A DNA stretch of 64,000 nucleotides from a bacterium (lineage in GTDB: Bacteria; SAR324; JACQKK01): assembly GCA_965205845.1 (NCBI GenBank), contig CBDBIG010000003.1:313117-377116 (forward strand). Reading direction: 5' to 3'. Both the position numbers and the translations under genes were made by a program. A model generated the notes under the pieces. That model did no database searches and was not told the origin of the DNA. It saw only the letters and a list, made by a program, of their open reading frames with translations. How positions within the stretch are numbered: position 1 is the stretch's first letter; each line of letters opens with the position of its first letter. Below, in pieces: positions 11,444-63,246 of the stretch.

Positions 11444-12160
11444 TTAGCGGGTGCCGTCTATTTCGAGGGGTTTAATTAGGGTGTCATCCAAGCGTTGTGC
11501 GTGGTGCTCGTCTTGCGGGGCTGCATCATCCTCCCCAACTTCCTCGTTGTCATCCAAGCGTTGTGCGTGGTGCTCGTCTTGCGGGGCTGCATCATCCTCC
11601 CCAACTTCCTCGTGACTAAAGAGCCCATCTTGGGGCAGTTCTGGGATATCTAAAGCCTCAAGGGTGGGGAGTTCTTTTAAGGTGCTAATGCCAAACAGGC
11701 TAAAAAATTTACCTGCCACCCCGTATAGCAAAGGGCGTCCGGGGCCTTCATCGCGCCCTGTGATGCGTACCAGGCGTTTTTCTAACAAGCCACGCAAACC
11801 GTTTGAAGAATCGACTCCACGTAAATGCTCTACTTCTGCGCGGCTGACGGGCTGACGGTAGGCAATGATGGATAAAATTTCCAACGCCGCAGGGGAAAGT
11901 TTGGTGGGTTTGTAACGGCTCAGCTGGCTTAGCCATGGTTTAAACATGGGCAGTGTGCGCATTTGGTAGGCTTCGCCCACTTTGGCAATATGAAACGCGT
12001 GCTCGGCCGTGCTGTATTGTTGGTTTAGGGTTTTAACCATGGAAGCAATACGTAAAGTACCATGCGGTTTAAGCAGGCGGTTTAATGCATGGCTCGAAAC
12101 AGGGTCGGCGCTGGAAAACAAAACCGCCTCCAAGACCCTCTTTGCATCGTTGTCTTCCAT
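11444..12160 (-). CDS. scpB: Segregation and condensation protein B
   Basis: N-terminal LEAVLFSSADPVS, winged-helix region SRAEVEHLRGVDSSNGLRGLLEKRLVRITGRDEGPGRPLLYGV, and an acidic C-terminal tail. Confidence 0.8.
   Translation of the reverse strand: MEDNDAKRVLEAVLFSSADPVSSHALNRLLKPHGTLRIASMVKTLNQQYSTAEHAFHIAKVGEAYQMRTLPMFKPWLSQLSRYKPTKLSPAALEILSIIAYRQPVSRAEVEHLRGVDSSNGLRGLLEKRLVRITGRDEGPGRPLLYGVAGKFFSLFGISTLKELPTLEALDIPELPQDGLFSHEEVGEDDAAPQDEHHAQRLDDNEEVGEDDAAPQDEHHAQRLDDTLIKPLEIDGTR
11483..11614. repeat. In-frame 66-bp tandem duplication inside the scpB 3' coding region (22-aa acidic repeat EEVGEDDAAPQDEHHAQRLDD x2)
   Basis: Identical 66-bp units at 11483-11548 and 11549-11614. 66 = 22 codons, so the reading frame is preserved. 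Confidence 0.9.
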
Positions 12161-19770: not shown

Positions 19771-21078
19771 ATGAGCAAAGCACCCGCATTGCATTTAAAC
19801 CGTTCCAACGCACTGTTTCAGCAAGCCCAACAGCTGCTGGTGGGTGGGGTGAACAGTCCTGTGCGTACTTTTCGCGCAGTTGGGAACGCACACCCCTTGT
19901 TTATCCAAAAGGCAAAAGGGGCTTACGTGTATGATGTGGATGGCAATCGCTACCTCGATTACATGGGTGCCTGGGGTCCTATGATTTTAGGCCACGCCCA
20001 TGAAACCATTGAAAAAGCGGTGATTGAGGCCGTGAAGAATGGACTGGCCTTTGGCTTGTGCTGTGAAACCGAAATGGAACTGGCCAAAGCCGTACAAGCA
20101 TGCTGCCCCCATGTAGAACAAGTGCGCTTTGTGAATTCTGGGGGGGAAGCCGCGCAAACGGCCTTGCGCTTGGCACGCGGGTATACTAAACGAGAGAAGG
20201 TGGTGAAGTTTAACGGCTGCTATCATGGAAGCATCGACCCGCTGTTGGTCAAAGCGGGTTCGGGCCTGTCCACTTTAGGCATTCCCGATTCCGCGGGCGT
20301 AACCGCAGGCAGTGCGCAAGATACCCTGTGCGCCGAATTTAACGACCTTGAGAGTGTGATCGCATTGTTTGAGGCCAATGCGGGTGAGGTCGCAGCGCTT
20401 ATTTTAGAGATTATTCCTGGCAATATGGGGGTGGTAACCCCCAAACTACCCTTTTTACAAGGGTTAAGGGACTTGTGCGATCGCGAAGGTGCGGTGCTGA
20501 TTGCGGATGAGGTGATGACTGGCTTTAGGGTGGGTTTGGGTGGTGCGCATGCGCTATTTGGGCTTGTGCCCGATTTGATAATGTTTGGTAAAGTAATGGG
20601 CGGTGGCATGCCCGTAGGTGCGGTCGGGGGACGCACAGATATTATGCAAACTCTCTCGCCACAAGGGCCTGTGTACCAAGGGGGCACGCTGTCTGGTAAC
20701 CCTGTGGCCATGGCCGCTGGACTTGCTGCGTTAACCCTATTGCAACAACAAGAACGTGATGATGGGTTTTATGCCGAACTCAACCGCAAAAGCGCCATGC
20801 TATTGGATGGCCTAAAGAGCATTTGCAAAAGTGCGGACATTGGTGTGCAAACGTGCCATTTTGGGGGCATGCTAGGGTTTTACTTTAGCGATACTCCCGT
20901 AGAAAATTACCGCCAAGCGATGGCAGCCAATGGACCTCAGTATCAGCGTTTGTTTCGCGGCTTGCTTAAACGCGGGATCGTGTTTGCGCCCTCGGCTTTA
21001 GAAGCCGCTTTTGTATCGACAGCCCATGGCGAAGAAGAGATTGAGCAGACCCTTGATGCGATGAAAGAGGTGTTGTGA
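19771..21078 (+). CDS. hemL: Glutamate-1-semialdehyde 2,1-aminomutase
   Basis: GGVNSPVRTFRAVG N-terminal motif and the PLP lysine region MFGKVMGGGMPVGAVGG. The stop overlaps the next gene (ATGA). Confidence 0.92.
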   Translation: MSKAPALHLNRSNALFQQAQQLLVGGVNSPVRTFRAVGNAHPLFIQKAKGAYVYDVDGNRYLDYMGAWGPMILGHAHETIEKAVIEAVKNGLAFGLCCETEMELAKAVQACCPHVEQVRFVNSGGEAAQTALRLARGYTKREKVVKFNGCYHGSIDPLLVKAGSGLSTLGIPDSAGVTAGSAQDTLCAEFNDLESVIALFEANAGEVAALILEIIPGNMGVVTPKLPFLQGLRDLCDREGAVLIADEVMTGFRVGLGGAHALFGLVPDLIMFGKVMGGGMPVGAVGGRTDIMQTLSPQGPVYQGGTLSGNPVAMAAGLAALTLLQQQERDDGFYAELNRKSAMLLDGLKSICKSADIGVQTCHFGGMLGFYFSDTPVENYRQAMAANGPQYQRLFRGLLKRGIVFAPSALEAAFVSTAHGEEEIEQTLDAMKEVL

Positions 21079-21329
21079 TGTCACCAAACCCTCTCGGTGA
21101 AAGGAAACGAAAAGTCCCCCAAGCACCCAAAAAACCGCCGCAGCCTTCCTTGTGGAGCAAAGGCGTGCGATTTATGGCGGTGGGTGTTGAGGTAGCCGTT
21201 GCGATTTTGCTAAGCTTATGGGTGGGTCAGTGGCTTGACATCCGCCTTGGTAGCGAGCCTTGGCTATTGTTGGGATGCATGTTGGTTGGGATGATTGCCG
21301 CGCTCCGTATTTTAATGCGTTTGCGCTAG
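21075..21329 (+). CDS. atpZ: Small 2-TM membrane protein in the atpZ/AtpI-like position at the head of the F0 ATP synthase operon
   Basis: 84 aa. It has a basic N-terminus and two hydrophobic helices (VGVEVAVAILLSLWVGQWL / LLLGCMLVGMIAALRIL). It is immediately upstream of atpI-atpB-atpE. Its 3' end is the first unit of the 87-bp array. Confidence 0.6.
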   Translation: MMSPNPLGERKRKVPQAPKKPPQPSLWSKGVRFMAVGVEVAVAILLSLWVGQWLDIRLGSEPWLLLGCMLVGMIAALRILMRLR

Positions 21330-21790
21330 GCCTGCGGTTTGCACACAGCGCAGCTATTGGGATGCGTGTTGGTTGGGATGATTGCCGCGCTCCGTATTTT
21401 AATGCGTTTGCGCTAGGCCTGCGGTTTGCACACAGCGCAGCTATTGGGATGCGTGTTGGTTGGGATGATTGCCGTGCCCCGTATTTTAATGCGTTTGCGC
21501 TAGGCCTGCGGTTTGCACACAGCGCAGCTATTGGGATGCGTGTTGGTTAGGATGGTGGCCGCGCTCCGTATTTTAATGCGTTTGCGCTAGGCCTGCGGTT
21601 TGCACACAGCGCAGCTATTGGGATGCGTGTTGGTTAGGATGGTGGCCGCGCTCCGTATTTTAATGCGTTTGCGCTAGGCCTGCGGTTTGCACACAGCGCA
21701 GCTATTGGGATGCGTGTTGGTTGGGATGGTGGCCGCGCTCCGTATTTTAATGCGTTTGCGCTAGGCCTGCGGTTTGCACACAGCGCAGCT
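21265..21790. repeat. 87-bp tandem repeat x6 that begins inside the atpZ 3' end; every unit re-creates the atpZ C-terminal codons (…GMIAALRILMRLR) and the TAG stop
   Basis: Units start at 21281, 21368, 21455, 21542, 21629 and 21716 with exact 87-bp period (87 = 29 codons). Units differ by a few SNPs (GGTTGGGATGATTGCC vs GGTTAGGATGGTGGCC). The ORF track shows the repeated peptide AIGMRVGWDDCRAPYFNAFALGLRFAHSA in another frame. Confidence 0.95.
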
Positions 21791-22985: not shown

Positions 22986-23092
22986 CCCCTGTTTGTTGTG
23001 CGTCGGGAGGGGAGGTATTGTACCTAAGTTACGCACAGGTTTATTGGATGACCGTGATCCGCCAACATTTTATGAAAGAAAAGAAAACATAC

Positions 23093-23404
23093 ATGAAACA
23101 AAAAACCTTATTTCTATTTGGCTTATTCATCTTGGCTTTGGCTACCCCGCTTTATGCTGCCACGGGCGAAGTTGCGACGTTGGGCCTGGCCTTAGGAGCA
23201 GGCATTGCCATTGGGATTGCTGCTTTAGGTGGTGGTATTGGTCAAGGTATCGCTGTTTCCAGTGCCTTAGAAGGCATTGCGCGCAACCCAAATGCGGCGG
23301 ATAAAATTTTTACCCCCATGATTATTGGCCTCGCCTTGATTGAATCGTTGGTAATTTACGGCTTGGTAATTGCGTTTATTTTGCAAGCAAAAATTGCTGT
23401 CTAG
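23093..23404 (+). CDS. atpE: F0F1 ATP synthase subunit c with an N-terminal signal-peptide-like extension
   Basis: c-subunit hairpin [25 protein letters not shown]...ARNP...[21 protein letters not shown] (with the ion-binding E). It is preceded by [24 protein letters not shown]. The start was placed at the ATG at 23093. The ORF-track start at 23018 is less likely. Confidence 0.85.
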
Positions 23405-23674
23405 CCTACTGATTGCTTGGCCTTAAAGCGATGAGGGGCACATTAGGGCAAAACAACACGCTCTTTGGTTTTTCTTTAAAAGGCGGCTAAAGGGCACGTT
23501 TGGGTGGGTACGTGTCGCCAAGCGATTTGGCGGATTGCTTGTTCCTTTCGCCCCTTGCCCCCGTTTACCGGGGGTTGCTTGGCTCGTACTTTTTGATGAG
23601 GCTATTTATCAGCATATGTGCAAGCTTTTGGCTGTGATACAAGGCCTTATGTAACCAACCACTTCCGCCCAAGA

Positions 23675-23860
23675 GCGATCTCATTCAATCCCGTCGCGTT
23701 GTGTTCGCCCGTAGCCGATCAAAAACCCTTGTGAAAGCGATCTCATTCAATCCCGTCGCGTTGTGTTCGCCCGTAGCCGATCAAAAACCCTTGTGAAAGC
23801 GATCTCATTCAATCCCATCGCGTTGTGTTCGCCCGTAGCCGATCAAAAACCCTTGTGAAT
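23675..23860. repeat. 62-bp tandem repeat x3 (GCGATCTCATTCAATCCCGTCGCGTTGTGTTCGCCCGTAGCCGATCAAAAACCCTTGTGAAA)
   Basis: Units at 23675, 23737 and 23799 in the gene-free region downstream of atpE. Confidence 0.9.
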
Positions 23861-24214
23861 CCGTTTTCTGGCACCTGCGCCTAAACCCCTTTTAGCAATT
23901 GCGTGTAAACCCTTGGGGTATGCCTTAAAAAAGCCGTGGGGGTATTCATGGGGCGTTTGCCCCTTTGCCGACCACCCCTTACCCGTGTGTCCTGAGAAGG
24001 GCACGGGAAAGAGCGGTCCATTTGGCGGTCAAAACCGCCTTTTACGCGCAAGATGAAACGGGTTTTTCATCGGCCATTTTGGGTTTTGGTTTAAAGGTTT
24101 TGGTTTAAGCCAACGCTTAAAACTCAGGTAACCGCCCAGCCCAGCCAAGAAGTGCATGTGTCCGAGCCTTGCTGGCGTGAAAAACATACCTCTCGCGCCT
24201 TGGCAGGGTTGCTC

Positions 24215-24252
24215 GCCCTTGCGTATCACTTAAAGCGGGCAAGGGCTTTTTT
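24215..24252 (+). terminator. Rho-independent terminator candidate
   Basis: GCCCTTGCGTATCACTTAAAGCGGGCAAGGGC (8-bp GC-rich stem) followed by TTTTTT. Confidence 0.6.
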
Positions 24253-24473
24253 GGGGTTATTCTCTATTGCCTTGGTGCTGTGGGTTGGCTTTTCTTGGAG
24301 TGCTTCCTCTTGGGTAGGAGGCCTCGGCAGCACTCTCGAGCCTTGAAGCCCTTTTGCAAAAGCACCTTGCATTCTCTGGGGGCAGGCTTTACCCACAAAA
24401 CCTAAAACCGCGTTATGAATCGCTACGCTATTGCGGGCAAAAGCCCTTTTTTGAGCATGGCTTGCCCTTTGGT

Positions 24474-24593
24474 CGATTTCAAACACAGGTTCAAACACAG
24501 GTTCAAACACAGGTTCAAACACAGGTTCAAACACAGGTTCAAACACAGGTTCAAACACAGGTTCAAACACAGGTTCAAACACAGTGCCATCAA
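24474..24593. repeat. 12-bp microsatellite (CAGGTTCAAACA) x10
   Basis: Read directly. It yields the FEPV/QTQV/FKHR peptide repeats seen in three ORF-track frames. Confidence 0.95.
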
Positions 24594-24644
24594 TCGCAAT
24601 GCTCGCCTTGACCTTAAAACCCCAAACCCATTCCTTCTTGGACG

Positions 24645-25124
24645 CCAGCCACCTGTTCCGCAGAGCAGATTCGAAGCCACGAGCGTTTACAAATGCTGTC
24701 AACAGCCGTAAAAAAAGAGTACTTGCGTTACATGAGGCGCAATCACCGACGTGGTAGCCCTCCCATGCGCGCATCATGAAAGAAATGTGCTACACTGAGG
24801 TGTCCTACGAACAGGCTTGGTTGGCTCTGCAGCCAGTTAAGTCGTTCATCCAAGTTTTGGCCCTTTTTTTAAGTATCACATGTACCAGCCACCTGTTCCG
24901 CAGAGCAGGTTCGAAGCCACGAGCGTTTACAAATGCTGTCAACAGCCGTAAAAAAAGAGTACTTGCGTTACATGAGGCGCAATCACCGACGTGGTGGCCC
25001 TCCCATGCGCGCATAATGAAAGAAATGTGCTACACTGAGGTGTCCTACGAACAGGCTTGGTTGGCTCTGCAGCCAGTTAAGTCGTTCATCCAAGTTTTGG
25101 CCCTTTTTTAAGTATCACACGTAT
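24645..25124. repeat. 240-bp direct tandem duplication (x2), near-identical
   Basis: Unit 1 is 24645-24884 and unit 2 is 24885-25124 (CCAGCCACCTGTTCCGCAGAGCAG...GGCCCTTTTTTTAAGTATCACA). Each unit carries a sigma70-like TTTACA-N17-TAAAAA and a T-run. Confidence 0.95.
24686..24714 (+). promoter_or_regulatory. Candidate sigma70-type promoter (TTTACA - 17 bp - TAAAAA), repeated at 24926-24954 in the second 240-bp unit
   Basis: -35/-10-like hexamers with 17-bp spacer read directly. A T7 run at 24864-24870 lies about 150 nt downstream, a possible short transcript. Speculative. Confidence 0.3.
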
Positions 25125-25135
25125 CTGTGTAAACG

Positions 25136-26509
25136 ATGTTTGAAGTATTACGCGAACGATTTCATCAGGCAGCCAACCAGTTCAAAGGCGGACGTTTGCG
25201 CCAAGAATTACTGGAAGAAGTACTCGAACAGGTGCGTGCTGCCTTGCTTGAAGCGGATGCTGGGCTGGAAAGCATTGCGCTATTTTTGGAGTGCTTGCGC
25301 CGGCGCTGTGAGCAAGAAGCCCCCCCGAATGATGAGGGTGTCTCTGCCAGTCAACGCTTTTTAAAAATGGCAGCAGAAGAATTGGCCACCATGATGGGAG
25401 GGGAAGAGGCCAAACCCTTGCGCACAACAGGTCGCCCCGCCTTGATTATGTTGGTGGGGCTACAAGGGGCAGGCAAAACAACCACTTGCGCCAAGCTGGC
25501 TTTGCACTTGCAGACCACCACTAAAAAGCGCTGTCATATGGCTTCTACCGACCACCGCCGTCCTGCCGCCATGGAACAACTTGCAGTGTTAGCGCAAGGT
25601 TTGGGTGTGTCTTGTAGCCCTCCCAACACGGCCAAGAATGCCATGAAACTGGCACGTTATGGTCTTTCTGCAGCCAAAAAAGCCAAGTGTGAAGTGCTAC
25701 TGCTTGACACCGCGGGGCGCTTGGAAATGGACACGGCACTCATGGATGAATTGGCTCAAATGGCCCAGGTGCTTCAACCCACTGAAATTTTGTACGTGGC
25801 TGATGGAATGAGCGGGCAAAATGCCGTGCAAGCATCGCGTCAATTTGCCGCAAAACTGCCTTTAACAGGATGCATTTTAACCAAAATGGAAGGGGATGCC
25901 AGGGGCGGGGCGGCCATTTCGATTCGTCACGGAAGTGGTGCTGTGGTTAAATTTATGGGCGTCGGAGAAAACCCTAAAGACCTCGAGGTTTTTCATCCGC
26001 AACGTATTGCCTCACGTATTTTGGGCTTAGGAGATATCCTCTCCTTAATGGAGCGGGCAGAAACGCTGTATAGCGAAGAAAAATCCCTTGAAATCCAGCG
26101 CAAAATGGCGCAGAACGCTTTTACTCTCACCGACTTTTTAGAGCAACTGCGCAATTTTAAAAGCATTGGGTCCATGAGTGAATGGAAGGAAATGCTACCC
26201 GCGTTGGGCAATGCTGGGGGCAACAAAATGGATGAAGGGCGCATGCGTAAAATGGAAGCAATGATTTGCTCAATGACCTTCGCCGAACGCGAGAACCATC
26301 AAATCATAAACCCTTCAAGGCTTCTCCGGATTGCCAAGGGCAGTGGCTGTAAAACCAGCGATGTCCAGCGTTTGCTTAAGCGGTTTAGACAAATGCGCAA
26401 AACCATGAAAAACCTGCGACAGTTGCAAAAGCAAAATGGCGGGGATTTAAGTTCTTTGCTCGGCGGAATGGGCGGGGAAGGGATAAAGGCTGGAAAAGGT
26501 TTTTTTTGA
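25136..26509 (+). CDS. ffh: Signal recognition particle protein Ffh
   Basis: N domain MFEVLRERF...LLEADAG, the GTPase motif MLVGLQGAGKTTTCAKLA plus DTAGR, and an M domain with a Met-rich C-terminal region. Confidence 0.93.
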   Translation: MFEVLRERFHQAANQFKGGRLRQELLEEVLEQVRAALLEADAGLESIALFLECLRRRCEQEAPPNDEGVSASQRFLKMAAEELATMMGGEEAKPLRTTGRPALIMLVGLQGAGKTTTCAKLALHLQTTTKKRCHMASTDHRRPAAMEQLAVLAQGLGVSCSPPNTAKNAMKLARYGLSAAKKAKCEVLLLDTAGRLEMDTALMDELAQMAQVLQPTEILYVADGMSGQNAVQASRQFAAKLPLTGCILTKMEGDARGGAAISIRHGSGAVVKFMGVGENPKDLEVFHPQRIASRILGLGDILSLMERAETLYSEEKSLEIQRKMAQNAFTLTDFLEQLRNFKSIGSMSEWKEMLPALGNAGGNKMDEGRMRKMEAMICSMTFAERENHQIINPSRLLRIAKGSGCKTSDVQRLLKRFRQMRKTMKNLRQLQKQNGGDLSSLLGGMGGEGIKAGKGFF

Positions 26510-26528
26510 CCCTTTTGCCAAAGGTTTT
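26510..26528 (+). terminator. Weak terminator-like hairpin after ffh
   Basis: CCCTTTTGCCAAAGG followed by TTTTGAT. Short stem, low confidence. Confidence 0.3.
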
Positions 26529-26919
26529 GATAAAAGTTTTTAAGGTTGCTAGCATTTTGTGTATGATGGTACGTCTTTAGGTCAAAATCCTATGCCGATG
26601 GATGCCGTCAGGCGGCCTTCGGTCGTCCTCTTATGCTTTGCAAAACGCTGCTTAAAAAATGGCAGCCTTGGGACCGTGTATATCGGTGATGGCTTGGTGT
26701 CTCAAGCAAGCGGATAGACATCCATGGCAAAAAAGGACGCGGGCGAGAATTTATTGCCCCAGTGCAATCCAGAGGTAAGCCCTTCTAGCAAGCATCCCCG
26801 TGAGGTCCGCAAAAGTTCATCTAAGCCGGCAAAACCAGCCAAAAGCCTATGCAAAGCATGTTTTGGACAGCAAGCCTTTTGATTACAATTTAACACTAAG
26901 GAGTTATTGAGAAAATACT

Positions 26920-27300: not shown

Positions 27301-27466
27301 AGAAATTTTCACATCTGCCAGCCCCGGCAATATGGGGGTGCTTTGCGTAAAAGGCATCCATGGTTGGCCTTGTCTACGTGGGGTGACTTTGCGTAAAGAG
27401 GCCCTGTGGTTGGGCTTTACTGCTCTATGGCAGTGCTCAACGCGCTGGGGCTGACTTGCCACAAGC

Positions 27467-27658
27467 AACGCTGAGGTGCACATTGTTGTAAACCGTGTTT
27501 GAAAGAGGGGCGCTCGATTGAAACCATGCTGTTTGACCGCGAACAACTCCCTTGCATTAAGCAACGCTGAGGTGCACATTGTTGTAAACCGTGTTTGAAA
27601 GAGGGGCGCTCGATTGAAACCATGCTGTTTGACCGCGAACAACTCCCTTGCATTGGCG
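27467..27658. repeat. 96-bp tandem duplication (x2) covering the RBS, start codon and first 11 codons of rimM
   Basis: Units at 27467-27562 and 27563-27658. Copy 1 contains ATGCTGTTTGACCGCGAACAACTCCCTTGCATT and runs into TGA, giving the decoy ORF MLFDREQLPCIKQR. Copy 2 is the real rimM start at 27622. Confidence 0.9.
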
Positions 27659-35709: not shown

Positions 35710-36594
35710 ATGGTGACACCCCCCCCTTGCCTTACCAACGCAGATACACCCCAAAAAACGCGTCAACTGCTGGGTGAGCGGCTGCAAACGTTTGTACCCA
35801 GGCCCCCACCCTATCCGCTGATTATGGGCATTATCAACGTCACCCCAAACTCGTTTAGCGATGGTGGCGACCTACCCCAGCTCGAGGATGTGCTCCGTCG
35901 GGCAGGCACCTTAAAGGGCGAAGGGGCAGATATTTTAGATGTAGGTGGGGCGTCCTCACATCCCAATGCCCCCCATACCCCAATTAAAGTGGAATTACAG
36001 CGCGTTGTGCCCGTGGTGAAAACCCTACACCAGCAAGGATTGGGACCTATTTCAATCGATACCCAACACCCTGCTGTCGCGCAGCAATGCCTGCACGCAG
36101 GGGCGCACCTAATCAACGATGTAAGCGGCCTTTGCACCACCCAAACCCCCAACGCTGATATGGCCGCGATCGCTGCTCAATTTGGAGCGCCGCTGGTGAT
36201 CACCTGCAACCATTTGAACCAACCCCCTCCCCCCAACACGCCTTTGTTAGAAGGGATGCTCCATTTTTTTAAGCAGCGCATTACCGCCGCCAAAAAGCAC
36301 GGGGCGACCCAACTTATTTTGGATCCTGGGTATGGTTTTGGCAAAAGCCTGCCCCAAAACTTGCAAACTTTGCGCGAACTTTCAAGTTTAATCCCTTTGG
36401 GTTACCCTATTTTAACCTGCACTTCGCGCAAAGGTTCCCTTGGCAAGTTAAGCGCAGAACCCAAACCAAAGGAACGCCTAGGTGCCGGTTTGGCAAGTGC
36501 ATTCTTTGCGCTGAAACAAGGGGCTAGCATTGTGCGTACCCATGATGTAAAACCCTTGCACCAGTTCGTTCATCTATGGCACACTTTGCGGTGA
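35710..36594 (+). CDS. folP: Dihydropteroate synthase
   Basis: IMGIINVTPNSFSDGGD (the DHPS N-terminal motif), DILDVGG, and GASIVRTHDV (C-terminal motif). The start is uncertain (ORF-track ATG at 35653; a later ATG at 35710 was used). Confidence 0.85.
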   Translation: MVTPPPCLTNADTPQKTRQLLGERLQTFVPRPPPYPLIMGIINVTPNSFSDGGDLPQLEDVLRRAGTLKGEGADILDVGGASSHPNAPHTPIKVELQRVVPVVKTLHQQGLGPISIDTQHPAVAQQCLHAGAHLINDVSGLCTTQTPNADMAAIAAQFGAPLVITCNHLNQPPPPNTPLLEGMLHFFKQRITAAKKHGATQLILDPGYGFGKSLPQNLQTLRELSSLIPLGYPILTCTSRKGSLGKLSAEPKPKERLGAGLASAFFALKQGASIVRTHDVKPLHQFVHLWHTLR

Positions 36595-37240
36595 CCCGCG
36601 CACAACATAGGCTAGGCAACACCTTATATAAATTTTTTTGTTTTTATGGCGTAAAAAAATTAAAGCATCGTTATTGCGCTTTTTGTATGTGATGTTTTGC
36701 GCAAGGCTTGGGCGTTGGCGGCTTGGCCACTGTACGCGCGTTTTCTCACATCATTTCAAAATACAGTCAATTAAGAAGCACGCAAGCCTGCTTGCCGCCG
36801 ATATTTCCTTGCGCAAAACACGCCTTTTTACGGCAGCCGAAAAGCGTGAGGTAAAACGCTTGCAACAAGCAAAGGCGCGCGTTGTGCGGACCCATGATGC
36901 TAAAACCCTTGCACCAGTTCGTTCATCTATGGAACCCCTTACGATGACCCACGCACAATTTGGCTATGAGCAGGACCTTAAATGAACTTTTTTTGGTTTT
37001 TATGGCGTAAAGAAATCAAAGCCTCGTTATTGCGCTTTTTGTTTGTGATGTTTTGCGCAGGCTTGGGCGTTGGCGGTTTAGCCACTGTACGCGCGTTTTC
37101 TCACACCATTCAAAATACGGTCAATCAAGAAGCACGCAGCCTGCTTGCCGCCGATATTTCCTTGCGCAAAACGCGCCCTTTTACGGCAGCCGAAAAGCGT
37201 GAGGTAAAACGCTTGCAACAAGCAGGGGCGCGCGTTGTGC
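36530..37240. repeat. ~355-bp tandem duplication spanning the folP 3' end, the intergenic spacer and the first ~85 codons of the downstream FtsX-permease gene
   Basis: Unit 1 is about 36530-36885 and unit 2 about 36886-37240. GTGCG[GT]ACCCATGATG...CACCAGTTCGTTCATCTATGG..., TTTTTATGGCGTAAA[AG]AAATCAAAG...CGCTTTTTGT[AT]TGTGATGTTTTGCGCA...GCCACTGTACGCGCGTTTTCTCACA...CGCTTGCAACAAGCA. About 93% identity. The junction lies at the short homology TTGTGC. Confidence 0.9.
36638..36985 (+). pseudogene. Chimeric ORF created by the 355-bp duplication: N-terminal 80 aa of the FtsX-permease fused to a diverged copy of the FolP C-terminus
   Basis: MFLWRKKIKASLLRFLYVMFCARLG...LLAADISLRKTRLFTAAEKREVKRLQQAKARVVRTHDAKTLAPV. 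Compare the real gene MNFFWFLWRKEIKASLLRFLFVMFCAGLG...LLAADISLRKTRPFTAAEKREVKRLQQAGARVVQ and the FolP end VRTHDVKPLHQFVHLWHTLR. Confidence 0.6.
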
Positions 37241-43497: not shown

Positions 43498-46400
43498 TTT
43501 AAAAAAATGCCTTCTTGGGTATTTTCTGAGTCACCAAGATGGCTTTTTTTGGGTGTGCCCAGGGGGCCTTCTTTGGCTTTTATGCGGCAAAAAGCCGTAA
43601 AATCGCAATACTCGCAGGCGTCGTCTTGAGGATCGACCTGCGCTGCCCCTCGAGAAAATTGTTTCACGCTTTTTTCAAATGCCTGTTGCCAACGTGCCAA
43701 CAGTGCTGGCTGTGTAGGCCATGGGTTTTTACCCCAGGTGCTTACTTTGTTGCCAAACAAACTGTCTTTGAATGTGACCTCACTCAAGCCAATCATCTCC
43801 ATGCCTTTGCGGTGCAGTTTGGCAAAAGCAAGTGCCATCAGGGGTTTTTGCTGCTGCGCTGGCTGTTGTGCTTGTTTTTGGAGCCAGGCCAAGGCATAAA
43901 GGGGCAGTTGGGGTTGGGTAATGCGTTCCTCGTTCTGCCATGAATGAAGGGGCAGTGTTTCTCCCGTTTTATAGTCCAGCAACACGGCAGCCTCAACCGC
44001 TTCTTGTGCATTCGATTCAAGGCTGCATTCTACGTAGTCCAAGCGGTCGAGACGTAGGCTTAAGGGCAAGCCAACCACGCTAAAGTCCAGTTTTTCCTCT
44101 TGCTTGCCTACACAAAAATCGCCCCTTTCCATGGCTTCTTTTTCCAACCATGCTGTGAGCAAACGGGTGATACGTTTGCCTTCCAAGCGTGCGGCGGCGG
44201 GAGAAAGCATCACGGTTTTTTTGCTTGCCTGTGCTTCGCTCGGTTTAGCTTGTGCTGCGGGGTCTGCGGGGTCTGCGGGGTCTGCGGGGTCTGCGGGGTC
44301 TGCGGGGTCTGCGGGGTCTGCGGGGTCTGCGGGGTCTGCGGGGTTGCTTACGCGAATAACACGCCCAATGGTGCGTTCCAAGGCTTGCTTAAAAGCCAAA
44401 GGTTTGGCAAGGAGGGCTCGTAATTCGCTTTGGCTTTGGGCCGCATCGTGCCAAAAAATTTCCAACACCCAGTGCACAATATTGCCTCGGGTCAGTGCGT
44501 CCAAACCTGTTTGCGCAAGGGTTTTTTTTTGGAGCATCAGGCGGTGCCTTGCAAAACTGCGAAAAGGGCAGAGCGCAATATCTTGGAGCAAACTTGCACC
44601 ACCCTTTAGGGTAGACACATCAATGGGCGGCCCGTTGGAATCGGGGCATGACTGCCAAGGCGAATGGCTTTGGGCATGGTCCAACATGGCCATCCATGCC
44701 GTGTGGGGGGGTGTCGGCATGGCACCTTTGGTGACGATAGGAGGGGGGGTGATGGTTTGCAGCAAGGAGCTGGGTCTGCGCTCCTCTTCGCTATCTAACT
44801 GCTGGGTTGCGTGGCTAATAACCACCTGCTTGGCGCTATGCAACAAGCGCGTCAGGCTCATTTTTCCCAGTGCAAGTTCACGGGCAGCACTTGAGCGTGG
44901 CATCTGATGGTCGCGTTGAAAAGCAAGGGGTAGCAAAGCATGCGGCATGGGCGGGGGAGGCCAGTGTTGATCATCAAAGCCCAACACCCATAGGTGGTCA
45001 AAAAAGAGACCGCTAGCCTGCCATGGTCCTAAAATATGGAGGCTTGCTTCGAATCCCTCGGCTTGAAAGGGGGTTTCTGCAACGATCCGTTGTAACCATG
45101 CAAACGCTTGGTTTGCAGACCATAGGTTCGTCGTTTGTGTATTTTGGATTCCATCGAGGGTGGAAAATACCTGCAACGCCTTTAAAAATCTCTTTTTTGC
45201 CTGTGCCTCGGTACTGTTAAGACCGCCCTCGGTTTGGCTCCCGTTTTTGGAAAAACCCAAGGTCCAACCCGCTGTGTGCAACAGGTTTAAAAAAAAATGC
45301 GCCCATTGCGAGGGCATTTTGTGCGTTGTTTGGGCCAATTGCCACGCATTTTTCCAAGCTTGCATTGGTTGGCACCATGTCTGCAGTTCTACCCCCGAAC
45401 GTTGCGCTTGTTGCAGCACATGGCGCACTGAAAACGGCTCAACCCAGGTGGCCAAAAAACGATGCGCAAACCGTGCACGCGGAATGCGTTCGGCGGTGGC
45501 ACCCACAATAAATGGGCTTGTAACCCACTGCACAAAATGCTTGGCACTGCGTGCAACCAAAGGGGATTGCAACAAGAGCAAGGCCGCTTGGACCAACCCT
45601 TGCTCGCTGAGTGGTGGTGCATAGGAAAGGTTAAAGGGCTTGGCTGCACCTGCCTCGGTTGCATGGGTAATCAGGGTTTTGATGGGGGATAAATACTGTG
45701 TACAGACCGTGTGCACCCGTTGCCATTCTTCTTGCAGATTGGGGTGGATAATCGCAATTTTTTGCTTTGGGTTTTTTTGGGATAAGTCACGTGCCCAAAG
45801 CAGTGCTCCCTCTAATTCCTTTTGCGAGTTTGAATACGGATGCACGGTAGGAGGGTTTGCCAACGGCGGTGGTGCTTGCCTTTGGGGTTGTGGCTCGGCT
45901 TGGGCGCGGGGTAGGGCAAGCCAAGTGCTAGCTGGCACGTTCACGGGGACCCACTCCACCACCACTTGTAGAGTACGCAATGCATCAAACAACCGCTCTT
46001 GCTGCGGGGTCAAGACATCAAACCCGCAGAGCACCATGTTGGTGGGCAACATAAACCCAAAGCCTTGGGTACTACCTTGTTCTCCAAGGTAATGTTCCCT
46101 TTCCAAAGCATGCACCACCAAACTGGCTACCTGTTCTTGACTACACCACCCTTGGGTATGCATTGCTTGCCCAAAAGCCAATGCCCAATTGACAAAAACC
46201 TTGGCTTCCAATTGCAACGTATGGGCAAAGGCTTCCTTTGCATGGGGCTGTAAAAACGCTCCTATGGTGGTATTCCAGCCCACAACATGCCACTCGCATA
46301 GCAAACCCCATGCTTGCTGTGCCAAGGCAGCGGCTTTGGCTGGTGTTAAGGGCTTATGAGTCGTCGTTGGGTTATGCAGGGGTGTTGTGCGGGAATTACG

Positions 46401-46846: not shown

Positions 46847-47062
46847 CACAAAGCCAAACGCACCTTGATTCTCGCGCTCAAGGATTTTCTTTTCTGCATG
46901 CCAGCGTCCAAGTTTTATCCCATTTTTCCCTGCGCTGCTTCCTTGTGCACAAAGCCAAACGCACCTTGATTCTCGCGCTCAGGGATTTTCTTTTCTGCAT
47001 GCCAGCGTCCAAATTTTGTCCCATTTTTCCCTGCTTCGGGTTCCTTGTGCACAAAGCCAAAC
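46847..47062. repeat. 101-bp tandem duplication (x2, bounded by a 13-bp direct repeat CACAAAGCCAAAC) covering the thyX 3' end, stop codon and downstream
   Basis: Units at 46861-46960 and 46961-47062 have a few SNPs and one small indel. This makes the ThyX C-terminus FGFVHKEPEAGK...GAFGFVHKEAAQGKMG-stop with FGFVHKE twice. 101 is not a multiple of 3, so the copies are read in different frames. Confidence 0.9.
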
Positions 47063-48591
47063 AAGGGTGCAAATAAAGGATGCGCTTTCAGTACGCATTG
47101 ATACATCTGCTGGGCAATCCCTCTGTATACCAAATGGCCTTGGGGCATCGTGCGTAACTCGGTTAACCAAATCAGTGCCCTTAAATTGAGATGCACCTGC
47201 CAGCGTACACGATAAGCCATGGGGAGCACGTAGGCGGCTTGCTCGGCAGAAAAATGCTGGCTCAGTTGCTGGTGCGCCTCGGCGGCTTGCAAAATCGCTT
47301 GGCAAAAAGGTTTTTCTAAGTTTGCCGCTTGAATATCTTCTGGGATCGTATAACCAAGGCTGATTCCAAGGGGTTGCCGTTGCTGGGTTAGGGTGCGATG
47401 GCGGTGCAGGTCGCGAAACGCACCAAAATCCGCCTGCAATTCGAAGGTGTAAAACACCAGTTCGGTGGCTCGGGGGGGCTTGTGGCGGCGGTTTTTGCGC
47501 GCTTTGCCCAGGCTTTCGATGGCTCTTTGGCGGGCGGCGGCGTCTAAGTCTGCCACGCTACGCTGTACGCCATCCCAGGGGCAAGACTGGTCCTCGTACA
47601 ACCACGCCGTAAGCATTTTTTCAACCGCTTGTCCCTCGCTTTCACAGTGCAACAGGCGTACGCATTCTCCACCGTTTTCCGCAATCCCCTCAAAGGCTTG
47701 GGCGACCGAAGCAGGGGGAAATACCTGTGCGAGGGTTTTTTGACGCGCTTTAAGCAGGGTTTGATGGTAGGTTTGTTGCGCTTTGGTGTTGGGGTGCTCC
47801 CTGGCGGAGCGCGTAACGAAAGCGGGAATCACGCCTTCCAGTTCGCATTGCATGGCATTGGCAAGGGCTTGCATTTCAGGCAAAGACTGGCTGCGTGTTT
47901 TGGCAATAAGGCTTTGAAAAAAACGCCCGTTACCATAAAGCCCCATGTTGGTGTGGGTGCAAATGGGAAGCAACCCCCGCAAAACATCCAAGGCGTGTGC
48001 GTGCAATGCTCTTTCCCATGGAATTTTCTTTTGTCCTTGGGGTCGCGGGCTGGCTTGCCTTAAAAATTGCTGTAAAGGGCCAAGCAAATCTCGATAACTG
48101 TCAAACAAAGTGCGCACGGCTTTTAAAAACAACCCTTGCTGGGGTGACGCCATAATTTGAGGGTCTTGATAAAAACGATAGTCACCATTGAAGAGGTCAT
48201 CAAAGCGCACATAACGCGTCGATTTTTCGAGGAATGAGCCCCCAATGCGCGAAGCCTGCAAATGGTTGGCAGCAAGCATCGAAATGCCCTCCAAGGCCAA
48301 GTGTGCACCGCCCAATTCTCCCACCGAATCATCGCCATAGCCATCGAGCACACGTTTGTAAAATGCATGCGCTTTTTTCTCATCGGCTTCCAAAAGGGTC
48401 TCCTCGCCCGCCAAAAATTCGCGCTCCAAGAGGCTGCGCAAATCGAGATTTGAACGCGAATAACGCGAAAACAATGCACCCTTCACCACCTCTGGCAAGG
48501 CTTTTAACGCAAAGATAGGCCTTTGTGTATTGGTTACAAAGCGTGCTACGGTGGTGGGATTAAAGGGCGTTAAAGGGGAATGCTTGTTCAT
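46915..48591 (-). CDS. thyX: FAD-dependent thymidylate synthase ThyX, long tandem-domain form (558 aa)
   Basis: C-half: ELVFYTFELQADFGAFRDLHRHRTLTQQRQ (the ThyX RHR motif) and RVRWQVHLNLRALIWLTELR (ThyX C-terminal N-x-R-x-L helix). N-half: SRIGGSFLEKSTRYVRF (S-x3-S-x-RY half of the ThyX signature) and ALDVLRGLLPICTHTNMGLYGNGRFFQSLIAKTRSQ. Two ThyX-like domains are fused. Confidence 0.65.
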   Translation of the reverse strand: MNKHSPLTPFNPTTVARFVTNTQRPIFALKALPEVVKGALFSRYSRSNLDLRSLLEREFLAGEETLLEADEKKAHAFYKRVLDGYGDDSVGELGGAHLALEGISMLAANHLQASRIGGSFLEKSTRYVRFDDLFNGDYRFYQDPQIMASPQQGLFLKAVRTLFDSYRDLLGPLQQFLRQASPRPQGQKKIPWERALHAHALDVLRGLLPICTHTNMGLYGNGRFFQSLIAKTRSQSLPEMQALANAMQCELEGVIPAFVTRSAREHPNTKAQQTYHQTLLKARQKTLAQVFPPASVAQAFEGIAENGGECVRLLHCESEGQAVEKMLTAWLYEDQSCPWDGVQRSVADLDAAARQRAIESLGKARKNRRHKPPRATELVFYTFELQADFGAFRDLHRHRTLTQQRQPLGISLGYTIPEDIQAANLEKPFCQAILQAAEAHQQLSQHFSAEQAAYVLPMAYRVRWQVHLNLRALIWLTELRTMPQGHLVYRGIAQQMYQCVLKAHPLFAPLFGFVHKEPEAGKNGTKFGRWHAEKKIPERENQGAFGFVHKEAAQGKMG

Positions 48592-55298: not shown

Positions 55299-55410
55299 AG
55301 GTGCACATTTACACGGATGGGCGTTGGTGCCAAGCAAAACGAAGGCGGCAAAGCAGGTGCACATTTACACCGATTAGCGTTCGTGCCAAGCAAAGGGAAG
55401 CAGTTGTTCC
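55299..55410. repeat. 56-bp tandem duplication (x2, about 80% identical) of the epmA 3' end including its stop
   Basis: AGGTGCACATTTACAC[GC]GAT[GT][AG]GCGTT[GC]GTGCCAAGCAAA... appears at 55299 and 55355. Copy 2 encodes …LLPFAWHER-stop. Copy 1 is a diverged duplicate downstream. Confidence 0.8.
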
Positions 55411-56939: not shown

Positions 56940-57499
56940 TTTTTAACCCGTTCCACATATTCACCACTGCGGGTATCAATGCGCAATACCTCCCCTTTTT
57001 CCACAAACAACGGGACCTGAATGACCGCACCCGTTGACAATGTGGCAGGTTTGCGCCCGCCTGTAACGGTATCACCCTTTACCCCTGGGTCGGTATCGGT
57101 TACCTCGAGTTCAACAAAATTGGCTAGGGAAACGCTAATGGGTTGGTCATTATGCAACAGCACGCTAACGTCAGTGTTTTCCAGCAAAAAGTGCGCATCG
57201 TCCCCCAACGCTTCTTTGGTTAATTGATACTGCTCATAGCTGCTTTGATCCATAAAAGTGTAGATATCCCCTTCTTTGTAAAGGCATTGCATGGTCCGCG
57301 AGTCGAGGGAGGCCTGTTGTAGTTTTTCGCCTGACTTCCAAGTACGATCAAGCACTGCACCGTTAAGCATGTTACGAATTTTGCAGCGGGTAAACGCATT
57401 GCCCTTGCCTGGTTTTACAAACTGAAAATCAATCACCGTGTAGGGGTTACCATCAATTTCAATTTTGAGTCCTTTGCGAATGTCTGAGGTATCGTACAT
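56936..57499 (-). CDS. efp: Elongation factor P
   Basis: MYDTSDIRKGLKIEIDGNPYTVIDFQFVKPGKGNAFTRCKIRNM. The KPGKG loop carries Lys, i.e. the EpmA-modified type. Confidence 0.93.
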   Translation of the reverse strand: MYDTSDIRKGLKIEIDGNPYTVIDFQFVKPGKGNAFTRCKIRNMLNGAVLDRTWKSGEKLQQASLDSRTMQCLYKEGDIYTFMDQSSYEQYQLTKEALGDDAHFLLENTDVSVLLHNDQPISVSLANFVELEVTDTDPGVKGDTVTGGRKPATLSTGAVIQVPLFVEKGEVLRIDTRSGEYVERVKK

Positions 57500-62878: not shown

Positions 62879-62954
62879 TTTTTTTAAAAACCTAACCCTT
62901 CGTTGTAAAAGCAGGTGGCAAGTCAAGGGAGACTGACTATCAGCCCACTATAAT

Positions 62955-63020
62955 GCAAGAAGGGTGCAAGAAGGGTGCAAAAAGGGCGCAAAAAGGGCGC
63001 AAAAAGGGCGCAAAAAGGGC
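62955..63020. repeat. 11-bp repeat x6 (GCAAGAAGGGT x2 + GCAAAAAGGGC x4), helically phased A-tracts immediately upstream of flgJ-flgM
   Basis: TGCAAGAAGGGTGCAAGAAGGGTGCAAAAAGGGCGCAAAAAGGGCGCAAAAAGGGCGCAAAAAGGGCACAAGG read directly. The 11-bp period is about one helical turn. Confidence 0.9.
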
Positions 63021-63246
63021 ACAAGGCAAAGCATTAAAAAGAGAGAGCATGTCAGACTAGGCACTTTACAAGCCTTGGCTCTAAACCCTTGCAGTGCGAA
63101 GTGGGGGTAGGCCCGTATGACAGCAAGGAGTGTGGCGTAAACCCCAAGGGTCTCCTCTTGCGTGGCTGAGTGATAAGGGGAAGGAAAAAGGGTTTTTCCT
63201 TTAAAAAAAAACGGCTGATGGCTTTTTTAAAAAAGGGTGTTCTTTC

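What the first reader, a model, noticed from the sequence alone, without database searches (positions are those of the whole stretch)
23405..25135. 1.7-kb gene-free, repeat-rich region with terminators and a duplicated 240-bp module that looks like a small transcription unit
This region contains no credible protein gene between atpE and ffh.
- A 62-bp x3 array lies at 23675-23860.
- Two terminator hairpins lie near 24025 and at 24215-24252.
- A (CAGGTTCAAACA)x10 microsatellite lies at 24474-24593.
- A 240-bp unit is present twice in tandem at 24645-25124.
- Each 240-bp unit carries a sigma70-like TTTACA-17-TAAAAA and a GGCCC + T7 run about 150 nt downstream, so each could give a short, abundant non-coding RNA made in two copies.
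- Alternatively, the conserved minus-strand ORF start MRAWEG(H/Y)HVGDCASCNASTLFLRLLTAFVNARGFE, present in both units, could be a small protein.
- I could not recognise SRP RNA, tmRNA, RNase P or 6S motifs here.
Basis: partly seen in the sequence, partly recalled or inferred. Interest (0 to 1): 0.55.

Follow-up and report, generated by a model that had tools for sequence, protein, structure and literature searches.

The report
Duplicated non-coding spacer upstream of ffh
The 1.7-kb stretch between the ATP-synthase c-subunit gene and ffh is real non-coding, repeat-rich spacer DNA, but its duplicated 240-bp module is most likely a recent tandem copy of the DNA just upstream of ffh rather than a new small-RNA or small-protein gene.

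Summary
There is a 62-bp x3 array, a 12-bp x8.9 microsatellite (not x10) and a 240-bp x2 duplication. No ORF in 23405-25135 has family, homologue or codon-usage support.

The "small transcription unit" reading is not supported:
- Rfam gives nothing.
- The unit folds no better than shuffled sequence on either strand.
- The GGCCC+T7 "terminator" has no stem.
- The TTTACA-17-TAAAAA site lacks the key final T of a -10 box.
- The minus-strand ORF matches other proteins only through its (VFEP)n low-complexity part, and it is absent from the protein collection that holds the neighbouring genes.

The window carries 15 unrelated near-perfect tandem arrays. They have near-integer copy numbers and sharp edges, and several include gene ends. 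Unit 2 ends 11-12 nt before the ffh ATG.

Best reading: this is an inter-operon spacer at a synteny breakpoint, inflated by local tandem duplications. One of these doubled the ffh-proximal upstream region, which probably holds the ffh promoter and leader and includes a + strand hairpin. This is ordinary and of low interest. RNA data would be needed to exclude a small RNA.

The parts
23094..23404 (+). atpE (F0 c subunit), the last gene of the hemL-atpZ-atpI-atpB-atpE run and the left border of the spacer
   Evidence: Pfam ATP-synt_C, E = 1.5e-21. The start codon was chosen by eye at the ATG at 23094.
23557..23575 (+). GC-rich hairpin (CCCCCGG/CCGGGGG) about 150 nt after the atpE stop; a candidate atp-operon terminator element without an adjacent U tract
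   Evidence: -18.4 kcal/mol in context, z = -2.9. The sliding-window fold flags 23480-23630.
23674..23859 (.). 62-bp x 3.00 tandem array, 99% identical, with sharp edges and no microhomology
   Evidence: The period is not a multiple of 3. No notable structure.
23950..24071 (+). Cluster of short hairpins (23950-23963, 24024-24039 with a UUUU tail, 24052-24071); the most structured part of the spacer
   Evidence: -10.4, -10.4 and -8.1 kcal/mol. The sliding-window z reaches -3.9.
24215..24252 (+). Terminator-like element: 8-bp GC-rich stem (24215-24222 / 24239-24246), 16-nt loop, then U6 (24247-24252)
   Evidence: The loop is too long for the consensus scan, so that scan did not list it.
24478..24584 (.). 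Perfect 12-bp microsatellite TTCAAACACAGG x 8.9
   Evidence: It is open in five of the six reading frames, which lengthens chance ORFs across it.
24645..24884 (+). 240-bp unit 1 (upstream copy)
24885..25123 (+). 239-bp unit 2 (ffh-proximal copy); it ends 11-12 nt before the ffh ATG
24926..24954 (+). TTTACA-N17-TAAAAA promoter-like site of unit 2 (the twin in unit 1 is at 24686-24714); a possible ffh promoter, unproven
   Evidence: It fails the T at -10 position 6. The consensus scan has no discriminating power in this genome.
25049..25087 (+). 17-bp imperfect hairpin rich in G-U pairs, about 50 nt upstream of the ffh ATG (the twin in unit 1 is at 24809-24847); more stable as + strand RNA
   Evidence: -18.8 kcal/mol, z = -3.8, 0 of 200 shuffles on the + strand. 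On the - strand: -13.7 kcal/mol, z = -2.15.
25099..25109 (+).
   Evidence: -4.2 kcal/mol, z = 0.0. Not listed by the terminator scan.
24226..24777 (-). 183-aa minus-strand ORF running from unit 1 through the microsatellite; judged spurious
   Evidence: Only the (VFEP)n part finds matches, and there is no self hit. Not in the protein collection. The N-terminal part is non-coding by codon usage, and only 24240-24470 is gene-like.
25136..26509 (+). ffh, the first gene of the ffh-rpsP-rimM operon and the right border of the spacer
   Evidence: Pfam SRP54, SRP_SPB and SRP54_N. The operon order is conserved in relatives.

Best explanation
The 1.73 kb between atpE and ffh is non-coding inter-operon spacer. 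It lies at a point where gene order differs from the closest available relatives.

**What the spacer holds**
- Its left and middle parts carry + strand hairpins, with and without U tracts. These plausibly end atp-operon transcription (inferred).
- About 460 nt of its length are extra copies from three independent, recent tandem duplications (62 bp x3, 12 bp x8.9, 240 bp x2).
- These duplications are instances of a window-wide mutational habit. Local segments, whatever they contain, are duplicated head to tail and persist where they do no harm.

**What the 240-bp module is**
- It is the segment that ends 11-12 nt before the ffh start codon, doubled.
- It therefore most likely carries the ffh promoter and 5' leader, including a + strand hairpin about 50 nt before the ATG.
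- The duplication would give ffh two tandem copies of its upstream control region (inferred, not shown).
- It is not an independent small-RNA or small-protein gene.
For: **No gene or known RNA in the spacer**
- Rfam has no match at gathering score, and only implausible eukaryotic miRNA-type hits at E <= 10.
- Pfam, PHROGs and NCBIfam give nothing on six-frame translations, apart from one sub-threshold hit.
- tblastn with the relatives' neighbouring proteins finds no remnant.
- Codon-usage scores in the units are negative in all frames.
- The spacer ORFs are absent from the protein collection, while RpsP and Ffh of the same 877,621-nt contig are present.

**The duplications are a general local process**
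- The window has 15 arrays of unrelated units, totalling 3946 bp or 6.2%. The 13 comparison loci have 9 arrays and 1653 bp in 191 kb.
- Copy numbers are near-integer, with 0-15 nt of overlap at the edges and no shared boundary motif.
- Some units contain gene ends, so they copy pre-existing local sequence. The 87 bp x6 array includes the last 60 nt of the ATPase_gene1 gene. The 96 bp x2 array includes the rimM start.
- No copy of the 240-bp or 62-bp unit occurs elsewhere in the window or in the metagenome contigs. The 240-bp unit has no match in viral contigs, and the whole spacer has none in plasmids.

**Position of the module**
- Unit 2 ends 11-12 nt before the ffh ATG.
- In relatives, ffh heads the ffh-rpsP-rimM-trmD-rplS operon behind a 250-320 nt promoter spacer.
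- The relatives' divergent neighbour efp lies 30 kb away here, at 56936-57499 with 72-75% identity. The spacer therefore sits at a rearrangement junction.
- The hairpin at 25049-25087 is stronger on the ffh strand.
Against: - Even without the extra copies, about 1270 nt of unique non-coding DNA remain unexplained. That is far more than any other gap in the window.
- The ffh promoter has not been located. The consensus scan finds no site here, and it has no power in this genome (18 sites found against 16.3 expected).
- Periods of 12 and 240 are multiples of three, and the minus frame at 24240-24470 has gene-like codon usage. A small orphan gene is therefore not fully excluded.
- No close relative exists (next-best Ffh is 50% identical). 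Conservation could not be tested at all.
- No transcription data are available.
Confidence: 0.6

Rival explanations
1. One reading: each 240-bp unit is a self-contained gene for a small non-coding RNA. It would run from the TTTACA-17-TAAAAA promoter to the T run and be present in two copies.
For: - The motif pair exists in both units.
- The exact pattern also occurs at two other places in the window, where about 0.06 is expected from the single-motif counts.
- A + strand-biased hairpin lies inside the putative transcript.
- T7/T6 runs follow about 145 nt downstream.
Against: - There is no stem in front of the T run (-4.2 kcal/mol, z = 0).
- The -10 box lacks its final T.
- TAAAAA is 2.8-fold enriched in upstream regions generally, while TTTACA is not clearly enriched (4 found against 2.3 expected).
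- The whole unit folds like shuffled sequence.
- No Rfam family matches.
- A terminator 25 nt before the ffh ATG would block ffh, unless ffh had another promoter in the remaining 25 nt.
Confidence: 0.12
2. A real orphan protein gene lies on the minus strand: the 183-aa ORF at 24226-24777 with a (VFEP)n repeat, or a shorter product of its 3' part. It would be divergent from ffh, and its 5' end would be caught in the 240-bp duplication.
For: - It is the longest ORF in the spacer.
- Codon-usage score for 24240-24470 on the minus frame is 11.5-18.6 per 50 codons, against a gene mean of 16.4 +/- 6.9.
- The periods 12 and 240 keep the frame.
- Relatives have a divergent gene upstream of ffh.
Against: - Searching 1.84 billion proteins matched only residues about 60-100, the low-complexity repeat, with no self hit.
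- Neither start variant is in the protein collection.
- The N-terminal 45 codons lie where all frames score as non-coding.
- The two substitutions inside this ORF frame are both non-synonymous.
- A stop-free microsatellite makes a chance ORF of this length likely, at roughly p ~ 0.1 by my estimate.
- No Pfam, NCBIfam or PHROG family matches.
Confidence: 0.07
3. A tandem type I toxin-antitoxin-like module, comparable to the E. coli LDR or Ibs/Sib repeats. Each unit would encode a small peptide (31-aa + strand ORF MKEMCYTEVSYEQAWLALQPVKSFIQVLALF) and an overlapping antisense RNA.
For: - A tandem intergenic module of a few hundred bp is the typical layout of such loci (my own knowledge of LDR/Rdl and Ibs/Sib).
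- A TTTACA-N17-TAAAAA site on the minus strand at 25133-25105 faces the + strand site, so convergent transcription is conceivable.
Against: - The peptide is not kept between copies. T7 against T6 shifts the frame, so unit 1 reads on to 111 aa.
- There is no long uninterrupted hydrophobic stretch.
- The minus-strand site is complete only at the right flank, not in unit 1.
- Codon scores are negative.
- The region was not scanned against the PADLOC library, so no defence-system family assignment was tested.
Confidence: 0.04
4. The 240-bp unit is a decayed fragment of an HUH rolling-circle Rep gene from an integrated small replicon, and the nearby arrays are former iterons.
For: - The frame +1 translation of one unit matches Pfam Gemini_AL1 positions 13-83 without gaps, E = 1.8e-4 at 21.9 bits. 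With both copies the E-value is 4e-8.
- PDB Rep 7vg8_A matches at E = 0.03.
- Shuffled versions do not hit this family.
Against: - The score is below the family cut-off of 24 bits.
- The two copies are not independent evidence.
- The metal-binding HUH motif aligns with PPM, and there is a stop codon in frame.
- The match ends at the unit edges, and ffh starts immediately after.
- No motif I or motif III is present.
- tblastn against plasmids and phages finds no Rep.
- No word-sharing homologue exists.
- One of ten shuffles reached E = 0.0075 against another family. Correcting for the roughly 40 segments of six-frame translation brings the hit near chance (the segment correction is my estimate).
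Confidence: 0.04
5. The tandem copies are assembly artefacts and do not exist in the organism.
For: - Some arrays in the window are 100% identical (66 bp x2).
- The source appears to be a single unannotated assembly with no close relatives to compare.
- One difference between the units is a homopolymer length, which is a typical sequencing error.
Against: - The two 240-bp units differ at 4 substitutions as well.
- Arrays of 3-6 copies carry scattered differences.
- The 353 bp x2 array is only 90% identical, so it is old.
- Arrays avoid disrupting genes, as expected of real, selected sequence.
Confidence: 0.05

Closest known systems
Intergenic tandem duplications / variable-number tandem repeats (VNTRs) of bacteria, formed by slippage or unequal recombination
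   Same: - Copies are head to tail and near-identical.
- Copy numbers are near-integer, with little or no microhomology at the edges.
- Units are copied from local sequence, including gene ends.
- Arrays sit where they are tolerated.
   Different: - The density is higher than in the comparison loci: 6.2% of the window against 0.9%.
- Three arrays are stacked in one spacer.
- Variability between strains could not be tested.
Tandem (duplicated) promoters upstream of a housekeeping operon
   Same: The duplicated segment is the 240 nt that abut the ffh start. In relatives, ffh heads an operon behind a promoter-bearing spacer.
   Different: - No promoter has been mapped here.
- The duplication looks like a recent accident (98% identity) rather than a conserved architecture.
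E. coli LDR and Ibs/Sib tandem type I toxin-antitoxin repeats
   Same: Tandem intergenic modules of a few hundred bp with small ORFs and possible convergent promoter-like sites.
   Different: - The small ORF is not conserved between the copies.
- It has no clear transmembrane peptide.
- No antisense RNA evidence exists.
Geminivirus-type HUH Rep catalytic domain (Pfam PF00799)
   Same: A 72-residue gapless sub-threshold alignment of one reading frame of the unit.
   Different: - The score is below the family cut-off.
- The HUH motif is absent.
- There is an in-frame stop.
- Nothing supports it in plasmid, phage or protein searches.

Membership tests
Tandem duplication / VNTR | Head-to-tail copies of one unit with high identity | tested here: met
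   62 bp x3 at 99%, 12 bp x8.9 at 100%, 240 bp x2 at 98%.
Tandem duplication / VNTR | The unit is a copy of local sequence, not a dispersed mobile repeat | tested here: met
   No other copy of the 240-bp or 62-bp unit in the window or in metagenome contigs. The 240-bp unit has no match in viral contigs, and the whole spacer has none in plasmids. Sister arrays in the window include gene ends.
Tandem duplication / VNTR | Copy number varies between strains | not testable with these tools
   No second genome of the lineage is available; the next-best Ffh is 50% identical.
Intrinsic (Rho-independent) terminator: the GGCCC + T run of each 240-bp unit | Stable GC-rich stem-loop directly followed by a U tract | tested here: not met
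   Best fold is -4.2 kcal/mol with z = 0.0. The nearest real hairpin ends 16 nt before the T run. Not listed.
Intrinsic terminator: 24024-24039 and 24215-24252 | Stable GC-rich stem-loop directly followed by a U tract | tested here: inconclusive
   The stems exist (6 bp with U4; 8 bp with U6), but one has a short tail and the other a 16-nt loop. Termination itself was not measured.
Sigma-70-type promoter: TTTACA-17-TAAAAA | -35 and -10 hexamers at 16-18 nt spacing, with A at position 2 and T at position 6 of the -10 box | tested here: not met
   Position 6 of the -10 box is A. The scan lists no site in 23000-25400, but it has no power in this genome: 18 sites found against 16.3 expected.
Known RNA families (Rfam 15, including SRP RNA, tmRNA, RNase P, 6S) | Covariance-model match at or near the gathering score | tested here: not met
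   None at gathering score in the window apart from 2 tRNAs. At E <= 10, only far-sub-threshold miRNA-type hits appear, caused by the microsatellite.
Structured small RNA in general | Folding energy clearly below shuffled controls, or covariation | tested here: inconclusive
   The whole unit gives z = -0.99 and +0.34. One local hairpin reaches z = -3.8 on the + strand. Covariation cannot be tested because there are no homologues.
Protein-coding gene (minus-strand 183-aa / 69-aa ORFs, + strand 31/111-aa ORF) | Homologues, family match or gene-like codon usage over the ORF | tested here: not met
HUH Rep endonuclease (PF00799) | Score at or above the family cut-off, and HUH and Y motifs present | tested here: not met
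   21.9 bits against a cut-off of 24. HUH aligns with PPM. Motifs I and III lie outside the match. There is a stop in frame.
Type I toxin-antitoxin tandem module | Small hydrophobic ORF conserved in every copy, plus an antisense RNA | tested here: not met
   The ORF is 31 aa in unit 2 but reads on to 111 aa from unit 1, because of T7 against T6. Antisense RNA is not testable.

The most novel reading that the evidence does not exclude
The 240-bp module is a functional, copy-number-variable control cassette. It would be either a tandemly duplicated promoter-leader that tunes ffh-rpsP-rimM expression, or an unclassified + strand small RNA built around the G-U-rich hairpin. It would sit in a deep-branching lineage whose intergenic regions are unusually prone to tandem duplication.
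Probability: 0.12. Interest if true: 0.45.

Novelty: new member of a known kind. Interest (0 to 1): 0.2.

Why it matters
The practical value is mainly negative. The region should not be annotated as a small-RNA or small-protein gene on present evidence, and the apparent promoter-terminator look of the unit does not survive testing.

Two points have modest wider interest:
- **Repeat density.** The window shows an unusually high density of young, unrelated tandem duplications that copy whatever lies locally, including gene ends and the DNA in front of ffh. This makes the genome a natural case for studying how such duplications arise and whether doubling a promoter region changes expression.
- **Lineage.** The genome belongs to a poorly sampled lineage. 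Its Ffh is at most 50% identical to any other protein in the collection, so comparative tests will only become possible when sister genomes appear.

Tried and rejected
1. **Known RNA.** Rfam at gathering score and at E <= 10, plus ARAGORN, found nothing in the region.
2. **Pseudogene remnants.**
   - Six-frame translations against Pfam, PHROGs and NCBIfam gave nothing credible.
   - tblastn with the proteins that flank ffh in relatives also gave nothing.
   - No atpF remnant was found.
3. **Rep-like hit (PF00799).** I followed it up with single-unit scoring, PDB, shuffles, tblastn against plasmids and phages, and a word-based homologue search. I judged it chance.
4. **Minus-strand ORF.** A full HMMER search of 1.84 billion proteins and exact look-ups of eight spacer ORFs gave only low-complexity matches, and the ORFs are not on record.
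5. **Conservation in relatives.**
   - The source contig could not be retrieved.
   - The genome scan found only Ffh at about 40% identity.
   - The best protein hits are 50% identical.
   - Their ffh upstream regions do not align with the unit.
6. **Dispersed-repeat or mobile-element idea.** There are no other copies in the window, metagenome contigs, viral contigs or plasmids.
7. **Promoter evidence.** The consensus scan is uninformative in this genome. Hexamer enrichment in 36 upstream regions shows A-rich leaders but no clear -35/-10 pair, and TTTACA is not clearly enriched.
8. **Shared mechanism motif at array edges.** None was found.
9. **Literature.** A search for SAR324 together with tandem repeats and intergenic returned no papers.
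Full report
**1. What is in the sequence**

The finding's inventory is essentially correct.
- Tandem Repeats Finder and the repeat tool give a 62-bp x 3.00 array at 23674-23859 (99% identity).
- They give a perfect 12-bp microsatellite at 24478-24584 with 8.9 copies.
- They give a 240-bp duplication at 24645-25123.
- A pairwise alignment fixes unit 1 at 24645-24884 and unit 2 at 24885-25123. The units differ by four substitutions and one T7/T6 length difference, and their edges are sharp.
- The TTTACA-N17-TAAAAA sites (24686-24714 and 24926-24954), the GGCCC + T runs (24859-24870 and 25099-25109) and the shared minus-strand ORF start are all present.
- The flanking genes are as stated. An aminotransferase class III gene (hemL-like), an ATPase_gene1-family gene, atpI, atpB and atpE lie on the left. 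ffh, rpsP and rimM lie on the right.
- A crude ORF map shows a gene-dense window. This 1731-nt gap is by far its largest non-coding stretch.

**2. Is anything known encoded there?**

No known RNA or protein family was found.
- Rfam finds only two tRNAs in the whole window at gathering score. In 23300-25300 at E <= 10 it finds nothing credible, and the top hit is a eukaryotic miRNA model matching the microsatellite. ARAGORN agrees.
- Six-frame translations of the spacer give no PHROG or NCBIfam family beyond low-complexity matches, and no ATP-synthase b-subunit remnant.
- Proteins that flank ffh in the nearest relatives leave no trace in the spacer.
- A codon-usage log-likelihood trained on 27 long ORFs of the window scores real genes at 16.4 +/- 6.9 per 50 codons. 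The 240-bp units score negative in all six frames, and most of the spacer is low. Only the minus frame at 24240-24470, and the microsatellite itself, reach gene-like values.

**3. The one protein-family lead**

Frame +1 of the unit hits Pfam Gemini_AL1, the HUH Rep catalytic domain. The E-value is 4e-8 when both copies are present. The copies are not independent, though.
- A single unit scores 21.9 bits (E = 1.8e-4), below the 24-bit cut-off.
- In the alignment to a solved Rep (7vg8_A, E = 0.03), the HUH motif aligns with PPM and the frame contains a stop codon.
- tblastn against plasmids and phages finds no Rep.
- No word-sharing homologue exists.
- Ten composition controls did not hit this family, but one reached E = 0.0075 elsewhere. 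Correcting for the roughly 40 segments of six-frame translation brings the hit near chance (the segment correction is my estimate).

I keep this lead as a low-probability rival.

**4. The small-protein alternative**

The 183-aa minus-strand ORF (24226-24777) was searched with full HMMER against 1.84 billion representatives.
- Every hit aligns to residues about 60-100, the (VFEP)n translation of the microsatellite. There is no self hit.
- Exact look-ups show that none of eight spacer ORFs is in the 15-billion-protein collection. RpsP and Ffh from the same 877,621-nt contig are there.
- All four substitutions between the units are non-synonymous or lie outside the candidate frames.
- The microsatellite is open in five of the six frames, so long chance ORFs across it are expected.

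**5. The small-transcription-unit reading**

- The unit as a whole folds like shuffled sequence (z = -0.99 on +, +0.34 on -).
- The proposed terminator has no stem (-4.2 kcal/mol, z = 0.0).
- The proposed -10 box lacks the conserved final T. The consensus scan lists no promoter in 23000-25400. That scan has no discriminating power in this genome, however: it finds 18 sites against 16.3 expected, and 31 terminators against 29.6 expected.
- The exact TTTACA-N17-TAAAAA pattern does recur at 25133 (-) and 62909 (-), which is more than single-motif counts predict.
- However, TAAAAA is 2.8-fold enriched upstream of genes generally. This reflects A-rich, Shine-Dalgarno-poor leaders. TTTACA is not clearly enriched.
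- What does stand out is a 17-bp G-U-rich hairpin at 25049-25087, with a twin at 24809-24847. It is stronger as + strand RNA (-18.8 kcal/mol, z = -3.8) than as - strand RNA (-13.7, z = -2.15).
A strong hairpin lies at 23557-23575.

**6. Context that explains the repeats**

- The window holds 15 tandem arrays of unrelated units, totalling 3946 bp or 6.2%. The 13 comparison loci hold 9 arrays and 1653 bp in 191 kb.
- Copy numbers are near-integer, edges overlap by 0-15 nt, and no boundary motif is shared.
- Some units include gene ends. The 87 bp x6 array starts with the last 60 nt of the ATPase_gene1 gene. The 96 bp x2 array contains the rimM start. A 66 bp x2 array sits in frame in the ScpB tail. 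A 9 bp x10 array sits in frame in an AddB-like gene.
- These are therefore local segmental duplications of whatever sequence is there, kept where harmless.
- Neither the 240-bp nor the 62-bp unit occurs elsewhere in the window or in the metagenome contigs. The 240-bp unit also has no match in viral contigs, and the whole spacer has none in plasmids.

**7. Context that explains the module**

- Unit 2 ends 11-12 nt before the ffh ATG.
- In the closest available relatives (Ffh 50% identical, SAR324- or Lambdaproteobacteria-labelled MAGs), ffh heads the ffh-rpsP-rimM-trmD-rplS operon. It sits behind a 250-320 nt spacer shared with a divergent efp.
- In this window, efp and its neighbour lie 30 kb away (55374-57499; EF-P 72-75% identical) and the atp genes sit upstream of ffh instead. 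The spacer therefore marks a rearrangement junction.
- The 240 nt abutting ffh are the natural place for its promoter and leader. This last step is inference.

**8. Verdict**

The region is gene-free and repeat-rich, and hairpins with U tails are present. The specific idea of a duplicated small transcription unit or small protein is not supported.
- The best-supported account is non-coding inter-operon spacer inflated by recent tandem duplications, one of which doubled the ffh-proximal control region (confidence about 0.6).
- Limits: there are no transcription data and no close relatives. About 1270 nt of unique spacer remain without an assigned role.
- Novelty: this is a new member of a known kind (intergenic tandem duplication). 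Interest is low.

Noticed in passing
window 21270-21790: An 87 bp x 6 array (97%) whose unit begins with the last 60 nt and the stop codon of the ATPase_gene1-family gene (21075-21329). The gene's 3' end is therefore repeated six times between that gene and atpI.
   Followed up: partly
window 27455-27654: A 96 bp x 2 array that includes the rimM start codon and first 11 codons plus 63 nt upstream. The first copy is a truncated false start, and the ORF list picks an upstream TTG at 27595.
   Followed up: partly
window 36530-37240: An older 353 bp x 2 duplication (90%) spanning the 3' end of a pterin-binding (folP-like) gene and the 5' end of a MacB/FtsX-type permease gene. The 115-aa ORF at 36638-36985 looks like the duplicated gene start.
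   Followed up: no
window 11482-11613 and 44255-44344: Two in-frame coding repeats. A perfect 66 bp x 2 repeat lies in the C-terminal tail of ScpB. A 9 bp x 10 repeat lies inside an AddB-like PD-(D/E)XK nuclease gene next to an AddA-like helicase.
   Followed up: partly
whole window (gene starts listed): Few Shine-Dalgarno motifs. Many start codons are preceded by A-rich runs (TAAAAA, AAAAAA), and TAAAAA is 2.8-fold enriched in upstream regions.
   Followed up: partly
window 25136-26509 (ffh) and 56936-57499 (efp): Ffh has no relative above 50% identity among 15 billion proteins apart from itself, yet EF-P is 72-75% identical to the same SAR324-like MAG relatives. The lineage is poorly sampled and Ffh is unusually divergent. 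The source contig (877,621 nt, in NCBI and ENA) could not be retrieved.
   Followed up: partly
window 46915-48591 (-): The ThyX-domain ORF is 558 aa, about twice the usual length. Pfam reports two matched stretches, the best at residues 365-505, and a 101 bp x 2.1 array overlaps its 3' end.
   Followed up: no
window 26510-26919: A 410-nt gap lies between ffh and rpsP, where relatives have about 75-120 nt. It has no Rfam match at gathering score, and its content was not examined.
   Followed up: no
window 25105-25133 (-) and 62881-62909 (-): The exact pattern TTTACA-N17-TAAAAA recurs on the minus strand directly in front of the ffh ATG, and again just upstream of a probable gene start at 62877. 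Only about 0.06 such sites are expected from the single-motif counts.
   Followed up: partly
window 62955-63024: An 11-bp microsatellite GCAAAAAGGGC x 6.4. Similar GCCC + T-run or GGGC + A-run pieces recur in the atpE-ffh spacer (24243-24252, 24443-24452, 24860-24870).
   Followed up: no
L009 9808-10201: The SAR324-like relative carries two tandem arrays (periods 33 and 69) inside the extended gene that follows ffh. Repeat-proneness near this operon may therefore not be unique to the window's genome.
   Followed up: no
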